DNA from: a virus
DNA length: 64,000 nt
Reading direction: 5' to 3' (one strand)
IMG/VR virus record: IMGVR_UViG_3300047564_002155
Span: 64,001 to 128,000 of that record
Part shown: positions 14,314 to 29,595 of the stretch, piece by piece
Position numbering within the stretch: the first letter of the stretch is position 1
Layout of the letters: each line of letters opens with the position of its first letter
Notes under the pieces: model-generated
What the model saw: only the letters and a program-made list of their open reading frames with translations
The model's database searches: none
What the model was told of the DNA's origin: nothing
Made by a program: the position numbers and the translations under genes

Positions 14314-14360
14314 TGGTTGTTGGCCCGAAAGGGAAGTGGGCACGAAAGTGTTACCAACCA
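14314..14360 (+). ncRNA. Putative structured cis-regulatory RNA (three-way junction with two GAAA tetraloops)
   Basis: A gttgg/ccaac stem encloses ccc-GAAA-ggg and ggcac-GAAA-gtgtt. This is a GC-rich island in an AT-rich 5' UTR. Confidence 0.55.
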
Positions 14361-14377
14361 CAATAAAGGATGGGGAT

Positions 14378-16540
14378 ATGCCAAACTGGAAAAAAGTCGT
14401 AGTTAGTGGGAGTAATGTCTCACAACTTTTAAATGATGGTGTTTATTTAAGAACCACGGGTGATGGGGTTATTTCATCATCAGCTCAAATTGCGGGTGAA
14501 ATTAGTGGTGCGTTTACTGCAACATCCGCTTCTTTAAGTGGTAGAATTGATAATTTAAGTTCATCATCTACTGTGTTTGCAAGTACGGGTTCAAACACTT
14601 TCAACGGAGACCAAACTTTTAGTGGTTCTTTATTACCCGACACGACTGAAGTATTTAGTTTAGGTTCGCCTGACAAAGTATGGGAAAGTCTTTATGTAGA
14701 TGGGCAATCCATTTATATGAGAGATACTGCAACAAACACATTTGTTACAATGTCGGCTAATTCAGGTGTCCTTACCTTTAACAACACAAGATTAAATGTT
14801 CCACTTGGAATTACATCATCCAATTTAATACTAACTTCGGTAGTTAATGCTGGAACAAATACAGGTAAATTTCTTGTATTAGACTCTAATGGTAATGTAG
14901 ATTTTAGAACTGAAGTAGAGGTTCGCTCTGATATTGGTGCTCAAAGTTTATCTGCTGGTACATTATCTTCATCCGCACAAATCCAAGCATATGACATTTT
15001 CTTGGAAAAATTGGGTGATAATGTTATTTCATCATCAGCTCAATTAACAACCGAATTTGACACAAGATATCTAAATACAAGTGGTGATGGTGTAATATCA
15101 TCATCCGCTCAAGTTGACCACGATTCAACAACTAACTTTGTAGCAAACGAACACATAGACCACACCACAGTATCTATTTCAGCTGGTAGTGGTTTAAGTG
15201 GTGGTGGAACTATTGCTAGTACACGAACTTTAGCATTAGACACTTCATCTGCTCACTTTACGGATGGTGTAAAAACAAAATTAAATACTGAAGGTGTTAT
15301 TTCATCATCTGCTCAATTAACAGGTACTTTTGATACCCGTTACCTAAACACCACCGGTGATAATGTATTATCTTCATCAGCTCAAATTGCAGGTGAAATT
15401 AGTGGTGCTTTCACCGCTGCATCAGGTGGTTTCTCAACAAGAATTACTTCATTAGAAGCTGCAGGTGGAACTACATTCTCATCTTCGGTTTCTACAAGAT
15501 TAACAAATGTTGAAGGTTACACTCTTGATAATGTAACTGATAATGGTTCATCAACTACCAATGGGATTACAATTGGTGGTTTGACGGTGAATGGTAATGC
15601 TACAATTACAGGTACACTTACCGCACAACAATTTAATACTGAATTTGTATCTTCATCAATTATTTTTGAGTCCGGCTCAACAAAATTTGGTGACTCCGTA
15701 GATGATATTCATTCATTCACAGGTTCAGTAAAGTTAAATACCCAAACTGCTGCTACAACGGATACTGATAAGTTCTTGGTGTTTGATACCGGTGGTGAAA
15801 TTAAATATAGAACTGGTGCAGAAGTTTTAAGTGATATAAATCCTGGTGGTTTAATCTCATCATCTGCTCAACTTACAACCGAGTTTGATACTCGTTACCT
15901 AAATACAACAGGCGATGGAGTTATTTCATCATCAGCCCAATTAACATCCACTTTTGATACCCGTTACTTAAACACCACCGGTGATAATGTATTATCTTCA
16001 TCAGCTCAAATTGCAAGTGAAATTAGTGGTGCTTTTACTGGCGCTGGGTTTGTTGATGTTGGTAGTGCTGCGAGTGCGTCAAGGTTAGCTGTATGGCAAG
16101 ACGGAAACACTATCAGAGGGTATGAGAATATTACAATACACAATAATTCGGTAATTGAGGCTGGTTTATATTTAAGTGGCGGTTCATCCGGAATTGGTCG
16201 TAAAGTATTGCATGGTTCTGGTGGTGGTACTGGTGCTGGACAATTTTCAATATTAAATTGTGGAAACCCGGCGGATTCAATCGGAGCGCATGTTTCATAC
16301 ACAGTGCATGTCTACGGAAATAGAAATGCCGGCTTTAAAGCCGGAACTATTTTAGCAGTGTGGGATACTTCGGGTGGTAATATTCAATATTACGAAACCT
16401 CTACAAGCACATATGGTACATTACCAACCCACCAAGTTTATCCTTTTTTGACTGGAGGGTCTGTATATATTGTTTTAGCAAATAATAGTGGAACCTCATT
16501 GTATGTAACCGCTAACGCTGATATAATGACAACAATATAA
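14378..16540 (+). CDS. Tail fibre-like protein (SSSAQ family)
   Basis: The ATG at 14378 (MPNWKKVVVSGS) follows AGGA. It has FDTRYLNTTGDxVISSSAQ repeats and a distinct C-terminal tip domain. Confidence 0.65.
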   Translation: MPNWKKVVVSGSNVSQLLNDGVYLRTTGDGVISSSAQIAGEISGAFTATSASLSGRIDNLSSSSTVFASTGSNTFNGDQTFSGSLLPDTTEVFSLGSPDKVWESLYVDGQSIYMRDTATNTFVTMSANSGVLTFNNTRLNVPLGITSSNLILTSVVNAGTNTGKFLVLDSNGNVDFRTEVEVRSDIGAQSLSAGTLSSSAQIQAYDIFLEKLGDNVISSSAQLTTEFDTRYLNTSGDGVISSSAQVDHDSTTNFVANEHIDHTTVSISAGSGLSGGGTIASTRTLALDTSSAHFTDGVKTKLNTEGVISSSAQLTGTFDTRYLNTTGDNVLSSSAQIAGEISGAFTAASGGFSTRITSLEAAGGTTFSSSVSTRLTNVEGYTLDNVTDNGSSTTNGITIGGLTVNGNATITGTLTAQQFNTEFVSSSIIFESGSTKFGDSVDDIHSFTGSVKLNTQTAATTDTDKFLVFDTGGEIKYRTGAEVLSDINPGGLISSSAQLTTEFDTRYLNTTGDGVISSSAQLTSTFDTRYLNTTGDNVLSSSAQIASEISGAFTGAGFVDVGSAASASRLAVWQDGNTIRGYENITIHNNSVIEAGLYLSGGSSGIGRKVLHGSGGGTGAGQFSILNCGNPADSIGAHVSYTVHVYGNRNAGFKAGTILAVWDTSGGNIQYYETSTSTYGTLPTHQVYPFLTGGSVYIVLANNSGTSLYVTANADIMTTI

Positions 16541-16584: not shown

Positions 16585-17199
16585 ATGGCAAACGAATTTA
16601 TAATTAAAAATGGACTGATTATTCAAGGTGGTGGTGGACTACAAATGTCCGGCTCACTTGGAATTACTGGTTCATTAAACATATCAAGTGTAGTAAACGC
16701 AGGAACTGATACTGATAAGTTCTTGGTATTGGACTCTAATGGTAATGTAGATTTTAGAACAGGTACCGAAGTTCTTTCCGACATTGGTGCAGCCGCATCA
16801 TCCGTAAAAAACTATATAGATTTTAATAATGTAGTTGATTTTAAAACAATTGCTGATGGATACGCACCAATGTGTGGTATTACGGATATCCAAACAAGTG
16901 TAAATTCACCATTTGCACATTGGATTGCACCTTCGGATGGTTATATTGAACGAATTGAAGTAATGGTGGGTGAAACTAATACGGTGACTGATACTTTTTC
17001 AATTCAACCATATAAAAATGGTTCTGTATTGGGGTCATCGGTAGGTAATACACTGGGTGCTGTGAGAACTGTAACTGAATATGTGTTTAGCGCAACATAC
17101 TCATTCTCAAAAAGAGATAAAATTCAGTTTTATATGTCCAAAGGAACCAATACATCAGATTTGTATACATTCAATGTTTACTTCTTCGCTACAACCTAA
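16585..17199 (+). CDS. Virion fibre-associated protein
   Basis: Starts [10 protein letters not shown] and shares the [18 protein letters not shown] module with the upstream gene. Confidence 0.55.
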
Positions 17200-17219: not shown

Positions 17220-20200
17220 ATGAGTTTGATACACGCATTACACGAAGATACTTTGTTAGAGGTTAATGGAATACTAACCCCTATCAAGGATATCCAAATT
17301 GGCGATGTAGTAAAAAGTTACAATACTGAAGCCCAAACTATCGGTGAAAGTAAGGTTGTTTCTAAACACATCGGTTTTGATAGTGAATACTACCACATAA
17401 ATTTTAGTGATGGTTCACAATTAAAAACATCCATCAAATCACTTTTCTATTCACAAGATGGTGAATGGTTAACTCCTTTAGATGTATACCACTTAAAAAA
17501 ATCACTCCTTAACGGATTAGAAATCACCTCACTAAAATTAGTTGATGGTGATATTTCTTTTATTAGTATTGAAGTAGAACCCGACCACAACTATTTTGTA
17601 GGTAATCTATTAGTACACAACACAGGTCCTACGGGTCCTACGGGTCCTACTGGAGCTCAAGGTCCTAAAGGTCCCACCGGCTCTACCGGTTCAACGGGCC
17701 CTACCGGCGGTACTGGTCCTCAAGGTCCTATTGGCCCTAAAGGTCCAACCGGACCCGCTTCATCACCTCAAGGTGCTCAAGGTCCAAAAGGTCCTATGGG
17801 TAACTCACCACAAGGTCCAACGGGTCCTACTGGCCCAACAGGTCCTACCGGCCCAACTGGTCCTACTGGAGCTCAAGGTCCCAAAGGACCAACGGGTCCA
17901 ACTGGTCCTACTGGTCCACAAGGTCCAACAGGTCCAACGGGACCAACCGGCCCTACGGGGTCTTCACCACAAGGTCCTGCTGGTCCAAAGGGACCTACGG
18001 GTCCTACTGGCGCAACTGGCCCAACGGGTCCTACTGGTCCTACTGGCGCTAAAGGACCACAAGGTCCTACGGGTCCAACCGGTGGCACGGGTCCAAAAGG
18101 ACCACAAGGTCCTACGGGTCCAACAGGTCCAACAGGTCCTACTGGCCCTACTGGTGCAAAAGGACCACAAGGTCCTACTGGCCCACAAGGTAACCAAGGG
18201 CCAGTTGGCCCATCACCTCAAGGAGCTCAAGGTCCTAATGGACCAACAGGTCCAACCGGCCCTAAAGGACCAACGGGACCAACAGGCCCCACTGGTGCAA
18301 AAGGTCCACAAGGAGGAACAGGTCCTACTGGCCCAACCGGTGGTCAAGGTGCTACTGGCGCTCAAGGTTTCCAAGGACCAACCGGTCCTACCGGACCTAC
18401 TGGCGCAAAGGGTCCACAAGGACCCACTGGTCCACAAGGTAACCAAGGTCCTTCAGGTTCTTCACCCCAAGGTGCTCAAGGTCCAAAAGGACCAACCGGT
18501 CCAACTGGCGCTCAAGGTCCTGTTGGACCAACGGGTCCTACTGGACCAAAAGGACCTCAAGGTCCCACAGGTCCCACAGGCCCAACAGGAAACCAAGGTC
18601 CGATTGGACCAAAGGGTCCGCAGGGGCCAACGGGTGGAACTGGCCCTCAAGGTGGAGTAGGTCCTCAAGGTCCAAAGGGCGACCAAGGTAATTCACCACA
18701 AGGTGCACAAGGTCCGATAGGACCACAAGGAGCTAAAGGACCTGCGGGTTCTTCACCTAAAGGAGACCAAGGTCCACAAGGTGCTCAAGGTCCTAAAGGT
18801 CCCCAAGGAGCTAACCCACAAGGAGACCAAGGACCACAAGGTCCACAAGGTCCTAAAGGACCAACCGGGTCTTCACCTCAAGGAGCTCAAGGTCCTAAAG
18901 GACCACAAGGTCCACAAGGTAACCAAGGACCCGCACCTCAAGGTGACCAAGGTCCTAAAGGCCCACAAGGTCCACAAGGTAATCAAGGACCCGCACCTCA
19001 AGGTGACCAAGGTCCTAAAGGTCCACAAGGTCCACAAGGACAACAAGGACCTGCGCCACAAGGTGACCAAGGTCCTAAAGGTCCACAAGGTGCTCAAGGT
19101 CCGATGGGTAATTCACCTCAAGGACCACAAGGTGCAAAAGGACCACAAGGTGATAAAGGTAATACGGGCTCTTCGCCCAAAGGTGACCAAGGACCACAAG
19201 GCGCTCAAGGTCCTAAAGGTCCTCAAGGAGCTAACCCACAAGGTGACCAAGGACCACAAGGTCCACAAGGTCCTAAAGGTCCTACTGGCTCTTCACCGCA
19301 AGGTGCTCAAGGTCCTAAAGGTCCACAAGGTCCACAAGGTCAACAAGGACCCGCACCTCAAGGTGACCAAGGTCCTAAAGGCCCACAAGGTCCACAAGGT
19401 AATCAAGGACCCGCACCTCAAGGTGACCAAGGTCCTAAAGGACCACAAGGACCACAAGGACAACAAGGTCCAGCGCCTCAAGGTGACCAAGGTCCTAAAG
19501 GTCCACAAGGGCCAAAGGGTGACCAAGGTAATTCACCTCAAGGTGCTCAAGGTCCAACAGGTGCTCAAGGTGATAAAGGTAATACAGGGTCTTCACCTAA
19601 AGGAGACCAAGGTCCACAAGGTGCTCAAGGTCCTAAAGGCCCTCAAGGAGCTAACCCACAAGGTGACCAAGGTCCACAAGGCCCACAAGGTCCTAAAGGT
19701 CCTACTGGGTCTTCACCACAAGGCGCTCAAGGTCCTAAAGGTCCTCAAGGTGATAAAGGTCCAACTGGGTCTTCACCGCAAGGTGCTCAAGGTCCTAAAG
19801 GACCACAAGGTCCACAAGGTAACCAAGGTCCTGCTCCTCAAGGTGACCAAGGTCCTAAAGGTCCTCAAGGCGCTCAAGGTAATCAAGGACCGCAAGGTCC
19901 AATTGGACCTCAAGGTCCTAAAGGCCCTCAAGGTCCTAAAGGTCCTCAAGGAGACAAGGGTCCTCAAGGAGCTGCTCCTCAAGGTGACCAAGGTCCACAG
20001 GGACCAAAGGGTGACCAAGGTAATTCACCTCAAGGCGCTCAAGGTCCTAAAGGTCCTCAAGGAGACAAAGGACCACAGGGTGCGGCACCTCAAGGTGCTC
20101 AAGGTCCTAAAGGTCCACAGGGGGATAAAGGACCACAAGGTTCAATAGGTAACCAAGGAGACCAAGGTCCACAAGGTCCGCAAGGACCAAAGGGTGATGC

Positions 20201-21311
20201 TGGAACCTCACCACAAGGTGCTCAAGGTCCTAAAGGTCCTCAAGGAGACAAAGGTCCTCAAGGAGCTTCACCACAAGGAGCTCAAGGTCCACAAGGTGTT
20301 AAAGGACCACAAGGTCCTAAAGGAACTTCACCTCAAGGTGACCAAGGTCCACAAGGTGCTCAAGGTCCTAAAGGTCCTCAAGGTGATTCACCACAAGGAG
20401 ACCAAGGACCACAAGGTCCTAAAGGAGACCAAGGTAATTCACCTCAAGGTGCTCAAGGTCCTATTGGGGCTCAAGGTCCTAAAGGTCCTCAAGGAGACAA
20501 AGGTCCTCAAGGTGCAAAAGGTCCTCAAGGAGACAAAGGTCCTCAAGGAGACAAGGGTCCTCAAGGAGCTAATCCACAAGGTGACCAAGGTCCACAAGGT
20601 GAAAAAGGACCACAGGGGGATAAGGGAACCTCACCACAAGGTGCTCAAGGTCCTAAAGGTCCTCAAGGAGACAAAGGTCCTCAAGGAGCTTCACCACAAG
20701 GAGCGCAAGGCCCACAAGGTGTTAAAGGACCACAAGGTCCTAAAGGAACTTCACCTCAAGGTGACCAAGGTCCACAAGGTGCTCAAGGTCCTAAAGGTCC
20801 TCAAGGTGATTCACCACAAGGAGACCAAGGACCACAAGGTCCTAAAGGAGACCAAGGTAATTCACCTCAAGGTGCTCAAGGTCCTATTGGGGCTCAAGGT
20901 CCTAAAGGTCCTCAAGGAGACAAAGGTCCTCAAGGTGCAAAAGGTCCTCAAGGAGACAAAGGTCCTCAAGGAGACAAGGGTCCTCAAGGAGCTAATCCAC
21001 AAGGTGACCAAGGTCCTCAAGGACCACAAGGTGCTCAAGGTCCTAAAGGAACGTCACCACAAGGTCCACAAGGAGCTAAAGGTCCTCAAGGTCCTAAAGG
21101 AACTTCACCTCAAGGTGCTCAAGGACCACAAGGTCCTCAAGGAGACAAAGGTCCTCAAGGAGACAAAGGTCAAAAGGGAGAGGCTGCTCTTGGAACTTTA
21201 ATTAGTGGTGTATCACCAGGATTAACTTGGAACGGGTCTCGTGGATTTTTAAGTTTCAATAATGGTGGTGCTACATATGTAATTCATATGTATGTAAGTG
21301 GTTCATTCTAA
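17220..21311 (+). CDS. Collagen-like protein 1 with N-terminal Hint (intein-like) domain
   Basis: Residues 6-134 (ALHEDTLL...[11 protein letters not shown]...[17 protein letters not shown]) are followed by about 1190 aa of Gly-X-Y and a short C-terminal domain ending YVSGSF. Confidence 0.9.
18740..21020 (+). repeat. Higher-order tandem duplications in collagen 1 (60-, 420- and 423-bp periods)
   Basis: Blocks recur at 18751, 19171 and 19591 (420 bp) and at 20202 and 20625 (423 bp). 60-bp units occur at 18901, 18961 and 19021. Confidence 0.85.
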
Positions 21312-21334
21312 TCCAAAAATAAAGAAGTTCTCTT

Positions 21335-24300
21335 ATGAGTGTTAAAAACGGACAATTAGTCAGATTATATGATGGAAGTGAAACCGCTATTGAAAATCTC
21401 ATTAGTGGTTCTTCCATTGTAGCTGGTGTTGCTTTACCTGGACTTGGATTGGGTGAAACTGATTATAAAACTTGGTCTTCTACTGATATATCATCCACGA
21501 CATTACAACCCGCAAATGTTGTAACAAGAAATACTTTCATCAATTCAGCTATTGAAAAAATTGAATTTAACGATGGTAATCTTGTCGTATCACCAATGCA
21601 AGAAATCCTTGTAAAAGGTGGTGATAATGTATATCTTTTTAAAAGAGCAAAAGATGTAGTCTTAAATTCAGACCATTTAGTAAAATGGAATGGTTCTTCA
21701 CTTGTAGATGAACTAATTACTGAAGCTTATACCATAGACCCGGAAGACGCTTCAAACCTAAACATTGAAGACCTTGATGTTTACCTTGTAAATGGGTATG
21801 TAGTTCACAACGCAGGGACTTCTTATTTTACATCAGATTGTTTAACTTCAGATAATCTTGGTTGTGGTAACTGGCCTAATTTTGATCCTGGCTCATACTC
21901 CAACACTTGTTATTATGTATCGGGTGCTCCTGGAACTGATTGTGCTTATACTTGTGCCACTTGTGAAGAGATTGAATTTGATGCAAACTCCGATGGTGAA
22001 CCTTGTGGTTCTAATAATGAGTGTGACGCAGATACATCACAAGGTCCAACAGGTCCAACAGGTCCTCAAGGTGCAGTCGGTCCTAAAGGTGATAATGGGC
22101 CAACTGGTGGAACGGGCCCGACCGGTCCTCAAGGTGCTGTGGGTCCAATCGGCCCTACGGGTGATACTCCTGACGCACTAACGGGTCCTCAAGGTCCCGT
22201 AGGTCCAAAAGGACCATCGGGTAATTTGGGACCACAAGGTCCCACGGGACCAACAGGTCCAACGGGTGGACAAGGTGGGCAAGGTTCTCAAGGTGCTGTG
22301 GGGCCTGTGGGAGATTCTCCAACCGGAGGACAAGGTAACCAAGGACCTGTTGGTCCTACTGGCCCAACGGGGCCCGCAGGAGCATTAGGTCCGGTAGGAC
22401 CTATCGGACCAACCGGCGACCAAGGACCCACCGGACCAACCGGCCCAACGGGCGCTTCACCCACTGGCCCAGGTGGTGACCAAGGTCCAACGGGCGGAAC
22501 GGGTCCAACCGGTCCTGGTGGAGACCAAGGTCCAACAGGCCCAACAGGTGCAACGGGTGCTTCACCCACTGGTGGTGGTGGTGACCAAGGTCCTGTGGGA
22601 CCTCAAGGGCCAAAAGGACCTTCGGGTAATTTAGGAGCTCAAGGACCTGTTGGCCCAACCGGCCCAACTGGTCCTGTTGGACCTACTGGCGATACAGGTG
22701 CCTCACCAACCGGTCCAGGCGGTGACCAAGGACCCACCGGCCCTACGGGTCCTACGGGCCCCACTGGCGATAGAGGTCCACAAGGTCCTATGGGACCAAC
22801 GGGTGCTTCCCCAACAGGTGGTGGTGGAGACCAAGGACCAACAGGCGCTCAAGGACCTGTTGGTGGAACTCCAGGTCCTGGTGCAGCGGGTCCAATAGGA
22901 CCAGGTGGCGACCAAGGTTCACAAGGTCCTCAAGGTCCAATTGGGGCTTCCCCAACAGGTGGTGGTGGAGACCAAGGACCTCAAGGAGGTCAAGGTTCGC
23001 AAGGACCTACTGGAGATATTGGTGTTGGTGGCGACCAAGGTCCAACTGGCGGACAAGGTAATCAAGGTCCACAAGGATTACAAGGTCCAAAAGGACCTTC
23101 GGGTAATTTAGGTCCTCAAGGACCAATAGGACCTACCGGAGCTGGTGGACCTGCTGGGGATAATGCTCCTAAAGGCGCTCAAGGAGACCAAGGAAATACA
23201 GGTCCTATTGGACCCACCGGTGATGCTGGCCCCAAAGGAGCTCAAGGTGCTCAAGGAAATCAAGGAAATCAAGGTCCAACTGGTGATGCTGCTTTAACAG
23301 GTCCTCAAGGACCAATTGGAGGTGGGGGTGACCAAGGTCCTCAAGGACCTGCAGGAGCAAAAGGTGCTCAAGGTCCAGTTGGTGGTCAAGGAGACCAAGG
23401 CCCTCAAGGACCCGCTGGTCCTAAAGGTGCTCAAGGACCAATTGGAGGTGGAGGTAACCAAGGTCCTCAAGGACCTGCTGGCGGTAAGGGTGCTCAAGGT
23501 CCAATTGGCGGTCAAGGAGACCAAGGTCCTATGGGACCTTCGGGTAATTTAGGCGCTCAAGGACCAATGGGTCCTAAAGGTGACCAAGGTCCAACTGGTG
23601 ATGCAGCCCCAAAAGGTGCTCAAGGAGACCAAGGAAATACAGGTCCTATTGGACCCACCGGTGATGCTGGCCCCAAAGGAGCTCAAGGTGCTCAAGGAAA
23701 TCAAGGTAACCAAGGTCCAACAGGTGATGCTGCTTTAACAGGTCCTCAAGGACCTGTGGGTGTGAAGGGTGACCAAGGTCCTCAAGGACCTGCTGGAGGT
23801 AAAGGCTCTCAAGGTCCTATTGGTGGACAAGGAGACCAAGGTCCTCAAGGGCCTGCTGGGGCTAAAGGTGCCCAAGGTCCAACAGGCGCTGGTGGTGACC
23901 AAGGTCCTCAAGGACCTGCTGGTGGTAAAGGTGCTCAAGGTCCTATTGGTGGGCAAGGCGACCAAGGTCCTAAAGGACCATCGGGTAATTTAGGCCCCCA
24001 AGGTCCAACGGGTGTAAAAGGTAATCAAGGTCCAACCGGCGATGCTGCTGCTAAAGGTGCTCAAGGGGACCAAGGAAATACAGGTCCTATTGGTCCAACT
24101 GGCGATGCTGGTCCTAAAGGTGCTCAAGGTGCTCAAGGTAACCAAGGTAACCAAGGACCAACCGGCGATGCTGCATTAACAGGCGCTCAAGGTCCTATGG
24201 GACCTAAAGGTGACCAGGGTCCAGTGGGTACACCCGCCGAAACCGGGGCTCAAGGTCCTGTTGGCGTAAAAGGTGACCAAGGTCCTCAAGGGCCTGCTGG

Positions 24301-25918
24301 GGCTAAAGGTGCTCAAGGACCTGTTGGTGGACAAGGTGACCAAGGTCCTCAAGGACCACAAAGTGTAGCTACCGAAGGTGGTGATGGATATACTGGTGGA
24401 CCACAAGGTGCTGTTGGTCCAACGGGTGACCAAGGACCTAAAGGTGATGTGGGTCAAAAAGGTGATGATGGTCCTAAAGGGGCTCAAGGTCCTCAAGGAT
24501 TACAAGGTCCTAAAGGTCCTTCGGGAAATTTAGGAGCTCAAGGTCCTGTTGGTGTAAAGGGTGATACTGGTCAAAAAGGTGATGATGGTCCTAAAGGAGA
24601 CCAAGGACCAACTGGTGTTAAGGGAGACCAAGGACCTGCAGGAGAACAAGGACCTAAAGGACCTCAAGGAGCTCAAGGTAATCAGGGTAGACAAGGACCA
24701 ACCGGAGATGCTGCTCTAACAGGCGCTGCTGGTCCAATTGGACCCAAAGGTGACCAAGGTCAAAAAGGTGATGATGGTCCTAAAGGCGCTCAAGGTCCTC
24801 AAGGTAGAGTAGGCCCGCAAGGAGACCAAGGTGATGCTTTTGACGCTTTAACACCACAAGGACCTCAAGGAAATATAGGACCTGTTGGAGTTAAAGGTGA
24901 TGCTGGTCCTAAAGGCGCTCAAGGTCCTCAAGGACTTCAAGGTCAAAAAGGACCATCTGGAAACACGGGCGCTCAAGGACCTCAAGGACCACAAAGTGAT
25001 AAGGGTTCTACGATTGGACCTAAAGGGGACCAAGGATTTTCAGGCGATTATGAAGACACTGCGCCTAAAGGTGACCAAGGTCAAAAGGGTGACCAGGGTC
25101 AAAAGGGGGCTGATGGTCCAAAGGGTGCTCAAGGGGCTCAAGGATTTCAAGGTCCCAAAGGTGACCAAGGACCCACCAATTTAACAGGCCCACAAGGTGC
25201 TGTTGGTGTAAAAGGTGATGTTGGTGTAAAAGGTGATGATGGTCCTAAAGGCGCTCAAGGTCCTCAAGGTAGAGTAGGTCCGCAAGGTGACCAAGGTGAT
25301 GCTTTTGACGCTTTAACCCCACAAGGACCTCAAGGAAATGTAGGACCTGTTGGAGTTAAAGGTGATGCTGGTCCCAAAGGAGCTCAAGGTCCTCAAGGAT
25401 TACAAGGTCCAAAAGGACCGTCTGGAAACGCCGGTGCTCAAGGACCTCAAGGACCACAAAGTGATAAGGGTTCTACCATCGGTCCTAAAGGAGACCAAGG
25501 ATTTTCAGGCGATTATGAAGACACTGCACCCAAAGGCGATGTTGGACCTCAAGGTGACCAAGGTCAAAAGGGGGCTGATGGTCCTAAAGGAGCTCAAGGT
25601 GCCGCGGGAAATCAAGGACCACAAGGTGGCCAAGGAACATCCGCATTATCGGGCGCTGAAGGTGCTGTTGGACCACAAGGTGAACAAGGACCAACGGGAG
25701 ATTCTCCAACTGCTGAACAAAATGGACCACAAGGAGCACAAGGTATAGCTCCGGGTCCTAAAGGTGATTTTGGTCAAAAAGGTGAAAAGGGAAGTCAACT
25801 TGAAGGTGGTTACTTTGAGTGGAGTGATACTGATAATAAACTATACTTTAAAGAGTATGGTTGGACTGCCGGTGATAGATTATTTGTTGTAGAATTATAC
25901 AGGTCAGGTTCATTTTAA
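21335..25918 (+). CDS. Collagen-like protein 2 with N-terminal Hint domain and Cys-rich linker
   Basis: Residues 2-159 ([21 protein letters not shown]...[14 protein letters not shown]) are followed by an 8-Cys segment, a long Gly-X-Y region and a C-terminus ending YRSGSF. Confidence 0.9.
23080..25600 (+). repeat. Higher-order tandem duplications in collagen 2 (441- and 465-bp periods)
   Basis: Blocks recur at 23171, 23612 and 24053 (441 bp) and at 24781 and 25246 (465 bp). Confidence 0.85.
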
Positions 25919-25966: not shown

Positions 25967-26572
25967 ATGGAAAAGAAATTTATATTCAATCAAGACCCAT
26001 CACGATTTTCAGCTGACCATACCAATTATTATTGGTTTCAAAATGGATTTACTGCTGAAGAATTGGCTACGATTGAACAAATGACTTCCAATTTACCATT
26101 TGAAGCCGCGGGCGTTGGTGAGTTGGATAAATCACGAGTAGAAAGCGAATATCGTAAATCATCAATTAAATGGTGTCCTCAAAACGAAGAGTGGGAATGG
26201 GTTTACGATAAGCTTGGAACTATGATTTCTGAAGCAAACAACAATATGTGGAAATTTGATTTGACTCATATGAGAGAACAAATCCAATATACTGAATACT
26301 ACGAAGGTGGTGGTCAGTATGACTGGCATATGGATTGTGGTATTGGTATTCAAGCCCAACGCAAAGTTTCGGTTACTGTTCAATTATCACAACCTGATGA
26401 ATACGAGGGTGGTGATTTACAATTTATGTTAGGTGCTGGTCAGATTTGGGCTCCACGAGTTCAAGGGGCTGCTGTTATTTTCCCATCATTTTTCTTACAC
26501 CGAGTTACGCCTGTAACCAAGGGGACTCGTAAGTCATTTGTTCTTTGGGTTGGTGGAGAACCATATAGATAA
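25967..26572 (+). CDS. 2OG-Fe(II) oxygenase (prolyl hydroxylase/PKHD-like)
   Basis: HxD (WHMD), RKVSVTVQLS..EYEGGDL, and HRVTPVTKGTRKS with the distal His and Arg. Confidence 0.9.
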   Translation: MEKKFIFNQDPSRFSADHTNYYWFQNGFTAEELATIEQMTSNLPFEAAGVGELDKSRVESEYRKSSIKWCPQNEEWEWVYDKLGTMISEANNNMWKFDLTHMREQIQYTEYYEGGGQYDWHMDCGIGIQAQRKVSVTVQLSQPDEYEGGDLQFMLGAGQIWAPRVQGAAVIFPSFFLHRVTPVTKGTRKSFVLWVGGEPYR

Positions 26573-27882: not shown

Positions 27883-29595
27883 ATGAAAGTTTTGTTTGTA
27901 GTTGGATATCAGAAAACCCCATTTAATCCTTTTGTTTGGATTAAAGAAGGAATTGGTGGTTCTGAATACGCTGTTATAAAATTAGCTCATCAAATGTCAA
28001 AGCAGGGTGATGAGGTTGTTGTCACAGGTCAAGTTGTTCCGTGTGAAGTTGAGGGTATTAAGTATATACCATATGAATCCCTTGGAACAAATCAACATTA
28101 TGATGTTGTAATTGCTACAAATTATATTCACTATATTAATGAACTTGACTCACGAGAAATAACTTTTGACAAATCTTATTTTTGGATTCATAATAATGAA
28201 TATTACGCATATTGGAATGGTCAAATATTAGAGGATTTTGGAAAAGAACATTTACAAAATTCAAGGATGACTAATGTGATTGCAGTATCGGATTACTCCG
28301 CAAAAATACTTGAAGAAAAGTATACTGAAATGGTGGGAAAGGTCAGAGTTATTCCAAACGCTATTGACCCAACTGACTGGAATGGTATCCGATTTGATAA
28401 CAAACGAAAAAACAAATTTGTATATACATCCGCTGCTGATAGAGGTTTAAAAAACCTACTTGAAATCTGGCCGCAGATTCGTGACGCCAGACCCGAAGCG
28501 ACTCTTTGGGTAGCAAGTCCACCATACGCATTAGATTGGTATGAAGACTATAAGGGATTCTATGATGGTGTTCATTTTGTGGATAATCTACCACCAAGAG
28601 AATTATATGAGTTGATTGCTTCATCGGAGTATTGGGTATATCCATCACAATACGATGAAACCTATTGTATTACAGCATTGGAAATGATGATGGGTGAGGT
28701 TTCAATCATAACAACCGATACCGGAAATTTAGCAAGTATCATTCCAGCGCGAGGTGCTGTGGTATCTTCTGAAAGTGATGTTGAAACTTTAAAAAAACAA
28801 ATTTTAGAAAAACTTGAATTTGTAGAATCGGATGCTGCTTTTAGAAAGTTTTCAAAAGAAAATGCTAAATCTTTTGTTCTAAAACAAACTTGGGAAAATG
28901 TAGAAAAAATTTGGAGAAATCTTATGAACGAAACACAACCCAACCGACAAGAACAAACTGATATGTTAGCTTTACATCCTGAATTATATTCTTACAAATA
29001 TGACAAAATTGGATGGTTGGAACGATTTGTAACCTATGATGCGAGAATTAGAGAATGGGATTTGATTTCAGATGAACAATTTGATGGATGTTTTACATTT
29101 CCATTATTTACTGAAGAATTTTGTAAGATGATTCGTGAAGAGGCAGAACATTCAAAAAAATGGACTTACAAAAGACACGAATATTATCCAACCACGGATA
29201 TGCTATTATCTGAATTGGGATTGAATGAAATTTACTATGAAGTTCTCCAAACCTATGTAATGCAATTTATGATTCACAAATTTGGTTTAGAAGGTAGGGG
29301 ATGGGATTCTTTAAATTCTGAAAACTTTTTAGCAAGATACACACCAGACACTCAAGGTCATCTTTCAATACACCACGACTCTTCTGATTTAACTTGTTTA
29401 GTCCAACTATCAGACCTTGATGAATATGAAGGTGGTGGAACTTGGTTTTGGAGACAAAAAAAATTAATAAAAGGTGGAATCGGATATTGTACGGTACATC
29501 CTGGAAATATAACTCACAAGCACGGAGCAAGACCTGTAAGTAAGGGAAGTCGTTATATTATTGTATCGTTTATGAAAAATTTGGAAAGATATTAA
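27883..29595 (+). CDS. Fusion of a GT-B glycosyltransferase and a procollagen lysyl hydroxylase (PLOD)-like 2OG-Fe(II) domain
   Basis: N-terminal GT4-like motifs: GIGGSE, IPNAID, YPSQYDETYCITALE. C-terminal PLOD-like domain: FPLFTEEFC...YPTTD...FLARYTPDTQGHLSIHHDSS...YEGGG...HPGNITHKHG...GSRYIIVSF. Confidence 0.85.
   Translation: MKVLFVVGYQKTPFNPFVWIKEGIGGSEYAVIKLAHQMSKQGDEVVVTGQVVPCEVEGIKYIPYESLGTNQHYDVVIATNYIHYINELDSREITFDKSYFWIHNNEYYAYWNGQILEDFGKEHLQNSRMTNVIAVSDYSAKILEEKYTEMVGKVRVIPNAIDPTDWNGIRFDNKRKNKFVYTSAADRGLKNLLEIWPQIRDARPEATLWVASPPYALDWYEDYKGFYDGVHFVDNLPPRELYELIASSEYWVYPSQYDETYCITALEMMMGEVSIITTDTGNLASIIPARGAVVSSESDVETLKKQILEKLEFVESDAAFRKFSKENAKSFVLKQTWENVEKIWRNLMNETQPNRQEQTDMLALHPELYSYKYDKIGWLERFVTYDARIREWDLISDEQFDGCFTFPLFTEEFCKMIREEAEHSKKWTYKRHEYYPTTDMLLSELGLNEIYYEVLQTYVMQFMIHKFGLEGRGWDSLNSENFLARYTPDTQGHLSIHHDSSDLTCLVQLSDLDEYEGGGTWFWRQKKLIKGGIGYCTVHPGNITHKHGARPVSKGSRYIIVSFMKNLERY

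What the first reader, a model, noticed from the sequence alone, without database searches (positions are those of the whole stretch)
17220..21811. N-terminal Hint domains degenerate for splicing but intact for C-terminal cleavage, acting like self-removing propeptides
Seen: Hint 1 (17235-17621) has Ala at the nucleophile position (ALHEDTLL) and no block-B His (LKTSIKSLF), and ends VHN|T. Hint 2 (21338-21811) starts at Ser2 with no N-extein, also lacks the block-B His (VSPMQEIL), and ends VHN|A, so the +1 residue is not a nucleophile. Known: a terminal His-Asn is sufficient for Asn-cyclisation C-cleavage, whereas N-terminal chemistry needs Cys/Ser1 and TxxH. Inference: both domains are cleave-only modules. 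They may act as folding or trimerisation chaperones, or as timers that expose a new N-terminus.
Basis: partly seen in the sequence, partly recalled or inferred. Interest (0 to 1): 0.85.

Follow-up and report, generated by a model that had tools for sequence, protein, structure and literature searches.

The report
Self-cutting intein-like caps on phage collagen fibres
Two giant collagen-like fibre proteins of an uncultured marine T4-like phage each begin with an intein-type (Hint) domain that has lost the residues for cutting at its front end but kept those for cutting at its back end. It therefore most likely snips itself off the fibre, an untested natural counterpart of the engineered self-cleaving intein tags used in biotechnology.

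Summary
Both ORFs (17220-21311, 21335-25918) start with genuine Hint domains. The Hint 1 family profile matches solved Hint, BIL and intein chains (E 5e-8). Hint 2 has no Pfam hit, but folds at pLDDT 94 with a deep alignment and matches only inteins, BIL and Hedgehog domains.

Relatives strengthen the cleave-only reading. Hint 2 belongs to a family that usually sits at the C-terminus of fibre-like proteins. Those 46 relatives keep Cys1 (45/46), the block-B His (45/46) and His-Asn (46/46). The nine N-terminal collagen caps have Ser/Ala at position 1 and Gln/Glu in place of the His, yet His-Asn in 9/9. In the Hint 1 family, 77% of the block F/G segment is invariant against 13% of the middle.

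Cleavage itself is untested. The trimerisation-chaperone idea found no support; a conserved ~43-residue C-terminal domain is the better nucleation candidate. Whether the two caps degenerated independently is unresolved (AU p = 0.31).

This scan had already noted the C-terminal Hint caps on phage fibres in other genomes, but not this N-terminal form. I rate it a new variant of type-A BIL domains. I found no paper describing it.

The parts
17220..21311 (+). Collagen-like fibre gene 1 (1363 aa): leader, Hint 1, about 1185 aa of collagen, C-terminal domain
   Evidence: ORF and translation. The collagen part has 318 regular G-X-Y steps and 41 G-xxxx-G interruptions. Full-length relatives share the architecture.
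17220..17234 (+). Five-residue leader MSLIH before Hint position 1; Ile4 and His5 are invariant in the family
   Evidence: Alignment A1. The leader is also M-S-A-I-H in L041 and M-N-Y-N-L-I-H in P0137. Its role is unexplained.
17235..17621 (+). Hint 1 (Ala6-Asn134), PT-HINT/BIL-like, with no N-terminal nucleophile and no block-B His
   Evidence: The A3 profile hits it at E 2.3e-9.
17565..17630 (+). Block F/G segment S116-P137 ([19 protein letters not shown]|TGP); 17 of 22 positions invariant, including His123, His133, Asn134 and Thr135
17619..17624 (+). Predicted scissile junction Asn134|Thr135
   Evidence: Invariant HN|TGP in 14 non-redundant relatives plus P0135, P0137 and L041. Cleavage itself is inferred.
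21180..21308 (+). Conserved C-terminal non-collagen domain of gene 1 (43 aa, ends SGSF), a candidate trimerisation or attachment domain
21335..25918 (+). Collagen-like fibre gene 2 (1527 aa): Hint 2, Cys-rich linker, collagen, C-terminal domain
   Evidence: relatives.
21338..21811 (+). Hint 2 (Ser2-Asn159), a derived member of the C-terminal fibre-cap BIL family
21809..21814 (+). Predicted scissile junction Asn159|Ala160
   Evidence: His158 and Asn159 are the only invariant columns among 55 family members. The +1 residue is A, V, P or E in the caps.
21812..22042 (+). Cys-rich linker (77 aa, 8 Cys) between Hint 2 and the first Gly-X-Y triplet; it would be the mature N-terminus after cleavage
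   Evidence: Similar Cys-rich linkers occur in relatives.
25793..25915 (+). C-terminal non-collagen domain of gene 2 (41 aa, ends SGSF), homologous to that of gene 1
16585..17199 (+). 204-aa gene directly upstream, conserved (41% identity) in front of a distant Hint 1-collagen gene; context only

Best explanation
Both domains are BIL/intein-derived Hint domains that now act only at their C-terminal junction. After translation, the side-chain amide of the last residue (Asn134 in fibre 1, Asn159 in fibre 2) attacks its own backbone carbonyl. The penultimate His assists, together with the block-F His123 in Hint 1 or Asp148 in Hint 2. A succinimide forms and the peptide bond to Thr135 or Ala160 breaks.

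The Hint cap is released. The mature fibre then starts at TGPTGP... (fibre 1) or at the Cys-rich linker (fibre 2). Nothing can happen at the N-terminal junction, because there is essentially no N-extein, no position-1 Cys, and no block-B His.

Shown here: the Hint fold, the residue pattern, and its conservation across relatives. Inferred: that the bond is really cut, and why. I judge the most likely purpose to be a removable N-terminal cap that keeps the long, late-folding Gly/Pro-rich chain soluble and unassociated. The triple helix would nucleate at the conserved C-terminal domain and zip back towards the cap. That would make the cap a self-contained analogue of the procollagen N-propeptide.
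For: 1. Genuine Hint domains.
2. True N-terminal position with no upstream frame.
3. Natural comparison within the Hint 2 family. The 46 internal or C-terminal relatives have Cys1 in 45/46, block-B His in 45/46 and His-Asn in 46/46. The 9 N-terminal collagen caps have Ser or Ala at position 1 (6/3), Gln or Glu at the His position (6/3) and His-Asn in 9/9. His158 and Asn159 are the only invariant columns among the 55 sequences.
4. Hint 1 family. Position 1 is Gly, Ala or Ser, and the block-B His position is Ile, Ala, Ser, Val or Leu. The block F/G segment is 77% invariant against 13% for the middle of the domain. His123, His133, Asn134 and Thr135 are invariant at about 45% overall identity.
5. 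The nearest non-cap relatives of Hint 1 are PT-HINT domains with Cys/Ser1 and the block-B His.
6. Chemistry has precedent. Type-A BILs cut at His-Asn without a +1 nucleophile (PMC4031507 and PMC7765530). An Ssp DnaB C1A mini-intein still cleaves its C-terminus (PMC4339811).
7. Every complete protein recovered through the shared C-terminal domain starts with the cap (7 loci from 5 distinct proteins, plus the window).
8. A complete 494-aa relative combines the Hint 2-type cap with a C-terminal Peptidase_S74 self-cleaving chaperone. Self-removing end modules are therefore a theme in these fibres.
Against: - No cleavage product has been observed, and no proteomic or N-terminal sequence data exist.
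- Intein C-cleavage is slower in a C1A mutant. In inteins generally (my own knowledge) C-cleavage is often coupled to, and sped up by, the N-terminal step and the block-B His. Lacking both, the cut could be very slow or need a trigger.
- Within the nine-member cap 2 clade, 47 of 171 columns are invariant. His-Asn invariance inside that clade alone is weak evidence; the argument rests on the contrast with Cys1 and the block-B His.
- The two caps may share one origin (AU p = 0.31), so they may not be independent replicates.
- The invariant Ile4-His5 leader of family 1 and the invariant Thr at +1 are not explained by simple C-cleavage.
- Four of nine cap 2 relatives have Pro at +1. Its effect on the rate is unknown. 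From my own knowledge, Asn-Pro bonds can break through the same succinimide route.
Confidence: 0.6

Rival explanations
1. Catalytically silent structural domain. The Hint fold is kept as a permanent N-terminal head of the fibre, for example an adaptor that docks the fibre on the virion. His-Asn would be conserved for packing or through recent ancestry, not for chemistry.
For: Phage fibres usually attach through N-terminal domains (general knowledge). The cap is obligatory in the family. Cap-specific conserved surface motifs exist away from the active site: QLVRL, LPGL and STDISS in cap 2, and the Ile-His leader in cap 1. The N-junction catalysts have already decayed.
Against: His-Asn is tied specifically to Asn cyclisation. 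From my own knowledge, Hint lineages without C-cleavage (Hedgehog Hint; type-B BILs, PMC4031507) lack it. Here it is the only invariant pair over 55 sequences, and it survives in the very clade that replaced Cys1 and the block-B His in 9/9. In cap 1 the catalytic F/G blocks are the most conserved part, 77% against 13%.
Confidence: 0.22
2. Class-2-intein-like splicing in fibre 1. Thr135 attacks the His5-Ala6 bond directly, the Hint is excised, and MSLIH is ligated to TGPTGP...
For: Ala or Gly at position 1 together with an invariant +1 Thr and an invariant short N-extein (...IH) resemble the class 2 layout. Two relatives have Ser at position 1.
Against: There is no block-B His to activate the N-terminal scissile bond. 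Position 1 is Gly in most relatives. A five-residue N-extein has no evident function. This cannot apply to Hint 2, which has no N-extein and Ala, Val or Pro at +1. HN|T also occurs in ordinary PT-HINT relatives.
Confidence: 0.05
3. Cleavage followed by ligation. The alpha-amine exposed at Thr135 or Ala160 attacks a thioester made by a Cys1-bearing C-terminal Hint cap on another structural protein. This would be a type-A-BIL splice carried out in trans, covalently joining fibre parts.
For: The proposed type-A BIL splicing mechanism is exactly this aminolysis (PMC4031507). Hint 2's relatives are Cys1-bearing C-terminal caps on fibre-like proteins, some with collagen repeats.
Against: This 94%-complete genome holds no third Hint domain. 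Only the two caps are found, with the A3 profile at a permissive E limit of 10 and with PF14890. No thioester donor is therefore encoded.
Confidence: 0.03

Closest known systems
Type-A bacterial intein-like (BIL) domains (Amitai 2003; Dassa 2004; C. thermocellum BIL, PDB 2lwy)
   Same: Hint fold, C-terminal His-Asn, cleavage expected by Asn cyclisation without need of a +1 nucleophile, and a non-homing, host-adapted domain in variable surface or structural proteins. 2lwy is the best single-sequence PDB hit of Hint 1 and a Foldseek hit of Hint 2.
   Different: Type-A BILs have Cys1 and the block-B His and lie between two flanks, so they cut both junctions or splice. Here position 1 is Ala (Hint 1) or a non-conserved Ser (Hint 2), the block-B His is gone, and there is no N-flank.
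C-terminal Hint/BIL caps of phage fibre-like proteins
   Same: Direct homologues of Hint 2 (E 1e-14 to 1e-3), sharing IDVE..DVY.ANG..VHN. Several sit on proteins with collagen repeats.
   Different: Those sit at the C-terminal end (37 of 46 have at most 25 residues after the domain) and keep Cys1 and xEHP, so they can cut at their N-junction through a thioester. The window's version is at the opposite end of the protein and can act only at its C-junction.
Pfam PT-HINT (PF07591), pretoxin Hint of polymorphic toxins
   Same: Best Pfam match of Hint 1. Its nearest non-cap relatives carry PT-HINT and the same HNYFVG...HN motif. The careful tree joins them at 99/96.
   Different: The score is below the gathering cut-off (25.3 against 27.7). 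PT-HINT domains are internal, precede a toxin module, and keep Cys/Ser1 and the block-B His.
Engineered C-cleaving intein tags (e.g. Ssp DnaB mini-intein C1A)
   Same: The same logic: an N-terminal Hint domain with Ala at position 1 releases the downstream protein by Asn cyclisation (PMC4339811). The Ssp DnaB mini-intein is the top structural match of Hint 2.
   Different: Those are man-made point mutants that keep the block-B His. Here the state is natural, conserved across a family, and lacks that His.
Class 2 inteins (e.g. Mja KlbA)
   Same: No nucleophile at position 1, with a hydroxyl or thiol residue at +1 (Hint 1 only).
   Different: From my own knowledge, class 2 inteins retain the block-B His, and they splice a functional host protein. 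Here there is no such His, a five-residue N-extein, and mostly Gly at position 1.
Peptidase_S74 intramolecular chaperone domains of phage tail spikes and fibres
   Same: A self-removing terminal module on a trimeric phage fibre. One relative (P0008) carries both a Hint 2-type cap and an S74 domain.
   Different: Unrelated fold and chemistry. The S74 domain is C-terminal, and from my own knowledge it has a demonstrated trimerisation role.

Membership tests
Hint (Hedgehog/intein) superfamily | Hint fold | tested here: met
   Hint 2: the AF2 model has pLDDT 94.1, and all 50 Foldseek matches listed are intein, BIL or Hedgehog domains, TM 0.53-0.79 normalised by target length. Its family profile matches PDB Hint domains at E 5e-8, 10 of 14 members hit PT-HINT and 10 of 14 hit Intein_splicing, and the A3 profile hits it at E 2.3e-9.
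Type-A BIL domain | C-terminal His-Asn | tested here: met
   His133-Asn134 and His158-Asn159 are invariant in both families.
Type-A BIL domain | No nucleophile at the +1 position | tested here: inconclusive
   Hint 2: Ala here, and A, V, P or E in relatives, so met. Hint 1: invariant Thr, a possible nucleophile.
Type-A BIL domain | N-terminal Cys (thioester formation) and block-B TxxH | tested here: not met
   Position 1 is Ala6 in Hint 1 and Ser2 in Hint 2 (Ala in 3 of 9 relatives). The block-B His is replaced by Ser74 and Gln89. Neither domain contains Cys.
Type-A BIL domain | Embedded between two flanking polypeptides | tested here: not met
   Five residues (Hint 1) or only Met1 (Hint 2) precede the domain, with a stop 4 codons upstream.
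Class 1 intein | Cys/Ser/Thr at position 1, block-B His, +1 Cys/Ser/Thr, insertion in a conserved host protein | tested here: not met
   Hint 1 lacks the position-1 nucleophile and the His. Hint 2 lacks the His, the +1 nucleophile and any N-extein.
Class 2 intein | No nucleophile at position 1, +1 nucleophile attacks the N-junction, block-B His present | tested here: not met
   Hint 1 has Ala6 and Thr135 but no block-B His. This is not applicable to Hint 2.
Class 3 intein | WCT motif with a block-F Cys nucleophile | tested here: not met
   Neither domain contains any Cys. The residue before His-Asn is Val, not Thr.
Pfam PT-HINT (PF07591) | Score at or above the gathering cut-off of 27.7 bits | tested here: not met
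   Hint 1 scores 25.3 bits, E 2e-5. Hint 2 has no hit.
Intein-type asparagine peptide lyase | Demonstrated peptide-bond scission by Asn cyclisation | not testable with these tools
   This needs protein expression with mass spectrometry, or N-terminal sequencing.

The most novel reading that the evidence does not exclude
The caps are assembly-gated fuses. The His-Asn junction abuts the first Gly-X-Y triplet directly in fibre 1. It would become cleavage-competent only when the triple helix, nucleated at the conserved C-terminal domain, has zipped through more than 1,100 residues and reaches the cap. Cap release would then report completed, in-register folding and license the fibre for virion attachment. 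That would be a Hint domain re-used as a folding checkpoint, with the invariant Ile4-His5 leader replacing the lost block-B His as the regulatory or catalytic element.
Probability: 0.15. Interest if true: 0.8.

Novelty: new variant of a known kind. Interest (0 to 1): 0.6.

Why it matters
Hint domains are known as splicers (inteins), as N-junction cleavers and lipid transferases (Hedgehog), and as double-ended cleavers (BILs). A natural, conserved family that sits at the very start of a protein and retains only the Asn-cyclisation half-reaction would add a fourth use: a built-in, protease-free propeptide.

It would also show that phages mature collagen-like fibres by self-processing at the N-terminus. 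In one relative this happens at both ends, with an S74 chaperone at the C-terminus.

Practically, these domains are natural, Cys-free, C-cleaving tags that evolved without the block-B His. They could serve as scaffolds for traceless tag removal and as test cases for what minimally drives Asn cyclisation.

The contrast with the Cys1/His-bearing C-terminal relatives offers a clean system to study how the two intein half-reactions are uncoupled in evolution.

Tried and rejected
- Word-index protein searches with either N-terminal region among proteins of similar length found nothing.
- Megablast of the region and tblastn of Hint 2 against deposited phages found nothing. tblastn of Hint 1 found only C-terminal Hint domains in Erwinia and Yersinia jumbo-phage structural proteins.
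- AF2 of Hint 2 with only 5 sequences failed (pLDDT 34). It succeeded only with the 55-sequence alignment.
- A three-copy complex prediction of Hint 2, run to probe the trimerisation idea, returned 'no answer'. It counts neither for nor against.
- The quick ML tree separated the caps, but the constrained tree scored higher, so the quick tree was unreliable. The careful tree again separates them (cap 1 with PT-HINT at 99/96), but the AU test does not reject one origin (p = 0.31). I therefore do not claim independent degeneration.
- A class 3 intein mechanism is rejected, because neither domain contains Cys.
- A trans-ligation partner is rejected for this genome, because it holds no third Hint domain.
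- The 2OG oxygenase downstream is not conserved next to the distant Hint 1-collagen gene in L007, so it is not an obligate partner of the cap.
- Literature searches found no description of such caps: Hint domain + collagen + phage; intein-like + tail fiber; HINT + collagen-like + intein; Hint domain + bacteriophage + virion.

Full report
**Setting.** The window is bases 64001-128000 of a 168-kb, about 94%-complete IMG/VR virus record. It carries a T4-type major head protein. That protein is 53-57% identical to those of Microcystis phage Mel-JY01 and the Flavobacterium 'immuto' phages. The finding lies in a run of + strand structural genes:
- a 734-aa fibre protein (14336-16540)
- a 204-aa protein (16585-17199)
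- two giant collagen-like ORFs (17220-21311, 1363 aa; 21335-25918, 1527 aa)
- a 2OG-Fe(II) oxygenase (25967-26572)
- a glycosyltransferase fused to a 2OG-oxygenase (27883-29595)

**Observation.**
- Fibre 1 starts MSLIH|ALHEDTLL, and its Hint domain ends VHN134|T135, followed at once by GPT repeats.
- Fibre 2 starts M-S2-VKNGQLVRL, and its Hint domain ends VHN159|A160.
- Each ATG is preceded by only four in-frame codons and then a stop, here and in all relatives. The domains are therefore truly N-terminal.
- Neither domain contains a cysteine.

**Are they Hint domains?** Hint 1 is one by sequence:
- Pfam PT-HINT at E 2e-5, just under the gathering score.
- BIL 2lwy at E 2e-4 with the single sequence.
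- The 14-member family profile reaches E 5e-8 to 5e-6 against BIL2 of Tetrahymena, the gp41-1 intein and 2lwy.
- Ten of 14 members hit PT-HINT and ten of 14 hit Intein_splicing.
- The nearest language-model clusters are viral PT-HINT/Intein_splicing clusters.

Hint 2 has no Pfam, PHROG or PDB sequence hit, and a shallow-alignment fold failed. An exhaustive profile search then found 129 relatives. Several match Intein_splicing, Hint_2, Hint and PT-HINT, one of them above the curated cut-off. With a 55-sequence alignment (A3) AlphaFold gave pLDDT 94.1 and pTM 0.89. All 50 Foldseek matches listed are inteins, BIL domains or Hedgehog Hint, with the best E at 1e-7. The same profile hits Hint 1 in the genome at E 2.3e-9. 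The refutation criterion 'not a Hint fold' is therefore not met.

**What the relatives show for Hint 2.** The 46 more distant relatives in A3 carry the domain inside, or much more often at the very end of, proteins of 165-1711 aa. Thirty-seven have at most 25 residues after it, and several have collagen repeats near their N-terminus. They are canonical type-A-BIL-like domains:

| Feature | 46 internal or C-terminal relatives | 9 N-terminal collagen caps |
|---|---|---|
| Position 1 | Cys 45/46 | Ser 6, Ala 3 |
| Block-B Thr | Thr 43/46 | Ser 7, Trp 1, Glu 1 |
| Block-B His | His 45/46 | Gln 6, Glu 3 |
| Terminal His-Asn | 46/46 | 9/9 |
| +1 residue | non-nucleophilic in 45/46 | A, V, P or E |

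(All counts are.) The nine caps are the window, L026-L030 and P0006-P0009. His158 and Asn159 are the only invariant columns in the whole 55-sequence alignment. The lineage that moved to the N-terminus therefore dropped exactly the two residues that serve the N-terminal junction, and kept the two that serve the C-terminal one.

**What the relatives show for Hint 1.** Twenty-four IMG/VR loci and several metagenomic proteins share the architecture leader, Hint, collagen, C-terminal domain. The proteins range from 327 to 1363 aa.
- Position 1 is Gly in most, Ala in the window's clade, and Ser in two lineages.
- The block-B Thr is an invariant Ser. The His position is Ile, Ala, Ser, Val or Leu.
- The block F/G segment S116-P137 is invariant at 17 of 22 positions, including the block-F His123, His133, Asn134 and Thr135. 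The middle of the domain (residues 18-103) is invariant at 11 of 86.
- The nearest non-cap relatives are PT-HINT domains of toxin-like proteins with Cys or Ser at position 1, the block-B His, and the same HNYFVG...HN motif.
- Every complete protein recovered through the shared C-terminal domain begins with this cap: 7 loci from 5 distinct proteins, plus the window. I found no uncapped form.

**One origin or two?** The careful ML tree puts cap 1 with PT-HINT (99/96) and cap 2 inside the C-terminal cap family. However, the AU test does not reject a tree with all caps together (lnL 6.9 lower, p = 0.31). An earlier quick tree was worse than the constrained tree. The two genes are adjacent, and their C-terminal domains are homologous. 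A tandem duplication of an already degenerate ancestor therefore remains possible. I do not count the two caps as independent replicates.

**Mechanism.** Established chemistry supports C-cleavage without the N-terminal step:
- Type-A BILs cleave at His-Asn by Asn cyclisation without a +1 nucleophile (PMC4031507; PMC7765530).
- An Ssp DnaB mini-intein with Cys1 changed to Ala still releases its C-terminal partner, though more slowly (PMC4339811).

The window's domains are the natural equivalent. I infer that Asn134 and Asn159 cyclise, release the caps, and leave fibres starting at Thr135 and Ala160.

The purpose is less certain. Trimerisation is more plausibly nucleated by the conserved ~43-residue C-terminal domain. 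In relative P0008 that role would fall to a C-terminal Peptidase_S74 chaperone; P0008 is a complete 494-aa gene. I therefore favour a removable N-terminal cap for a chain that folds from its far end.

Two features remain unexplained: the invariant Ile4-His5 leader and the invariant Thr135 in family 1. Three ideas are compatible with them, and I rank all three low or unproven:
- an auxiliary catalytic role for His5
- assembly gating of the cut
- class-2-like splicing, which I consider unlikely given the missing block-B His

**Known or new?** The closest known kinds are type-A BIL domains, PT-HINT, the C-terminal Hint caps of phage fibres, and engineered C-cleaving intein tags. This scan has noted the C-terminal caps repeatedly on other genomes, and I recovered them independently. 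The window's domains fail defining BIL and intein features: a position-1 nucleophile, the block-B His, and an N-flank. So they work like the C-terminal half of a BIL but are not ordinary members. Four literature searches found no description of N-terminal Hint caps on collagen-like or other phage fibres. The searchable library excludes much subscription literature.

**Verdict.**
- Observation: confirmed.
- Cleave-only interpretation: the best-supported reading (about 0.6), but untested.
- Chaperone or trimerisation role: unsupported.
- Class: a new variant of a known kind.
- Interest: moderate to high for intein and phage-assembly specialists.

Noticed in passing
window 25967-26572 and 27883-29595: A 2OG-Fe(II) oxygenase and a glycosyltransferase fused to a 2OG-oxygenase lie directly downstream of the two collagen genes. 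They are possible collagen hydroxylase and glycosylase genes. The oxygenase is not found after the distant Hint 1-collagen gene in L007.
   Followed up: partly
window 14336-16540 and 16585-17199: The 734-aa fibre protein has many repeats of a (V/L)ISSSAQ(I/L) motif. It shares an N-terminal motif ([22 protein letters not shown]) with the 204-aa protein. That small protein is conserved (41% identity) directly upstream of a distant Hint 1-collagen gene, so it may be a fibre partner.
   Followed up: partly
L006, L008, L014, L017-L024 (loci), about residues 95-110 of their Hint 1 domains: Many Hint 1 relatives carry a 7-14-residue insert with four Cys (e.g. SCGCGDCKCG). Two members get weak Pfam metallothionein hits. 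The window's copy lacks the insert. It could be a metal-binding knuckle in the loop where inteins usually carry insertions.
   Followed up: no
window 21812-22042: A 77-residue linker with 8 Cys lies between Hint 2 and the collagen repeats. Comparable Cys-rich linkers occur in all cap 2 relatives. It could be an interchain disulfide knot or a metal site at the mature N-terminus.
   Followed up: no
window 21180-21308 and 25793-25915: Both collagens end in a small homologous non-collagen domain of 41-43 aa that ends SGSF. It is conserved across the Hint 1-collagen family. It is a candidate foldon-like trimerisation or attachment domain with no Pfam or PHROG family.
   Followed up: partly
P0008 / L063:629-2113: A complete 494-aa metagenomic relative combines the Hint 2-type N-terminal cap, a Cys-rich linker, collagen and a C-terminal Peptidase_S74 intramolecular chaperone. 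It is a fibre with predicted self-removing modules at both ends.
   Followed up: partly
window 17622-21179: The collagen region of fibre 1 has 318 regular G-X-Y steps broken by 41 G-xxxx-G interruptions, mostly G-(S/N/A/P)(S/A/N)PQ-G, at fairly regular spacing. Fibre 2 shows a more irregular pattern.
   Followed up: no
L031:1466-2908 (Yersinia phage fHe-Yen9-02) and Erwinia jumbo phages: Annotated virion structural or tail proteins end in a Hint domain with block-B THEH and ...VLVHN followed by 10 residues. These are cultured-phage examples of the C-terminal cap type that could be tested by proteomics.
   Followed up: partly
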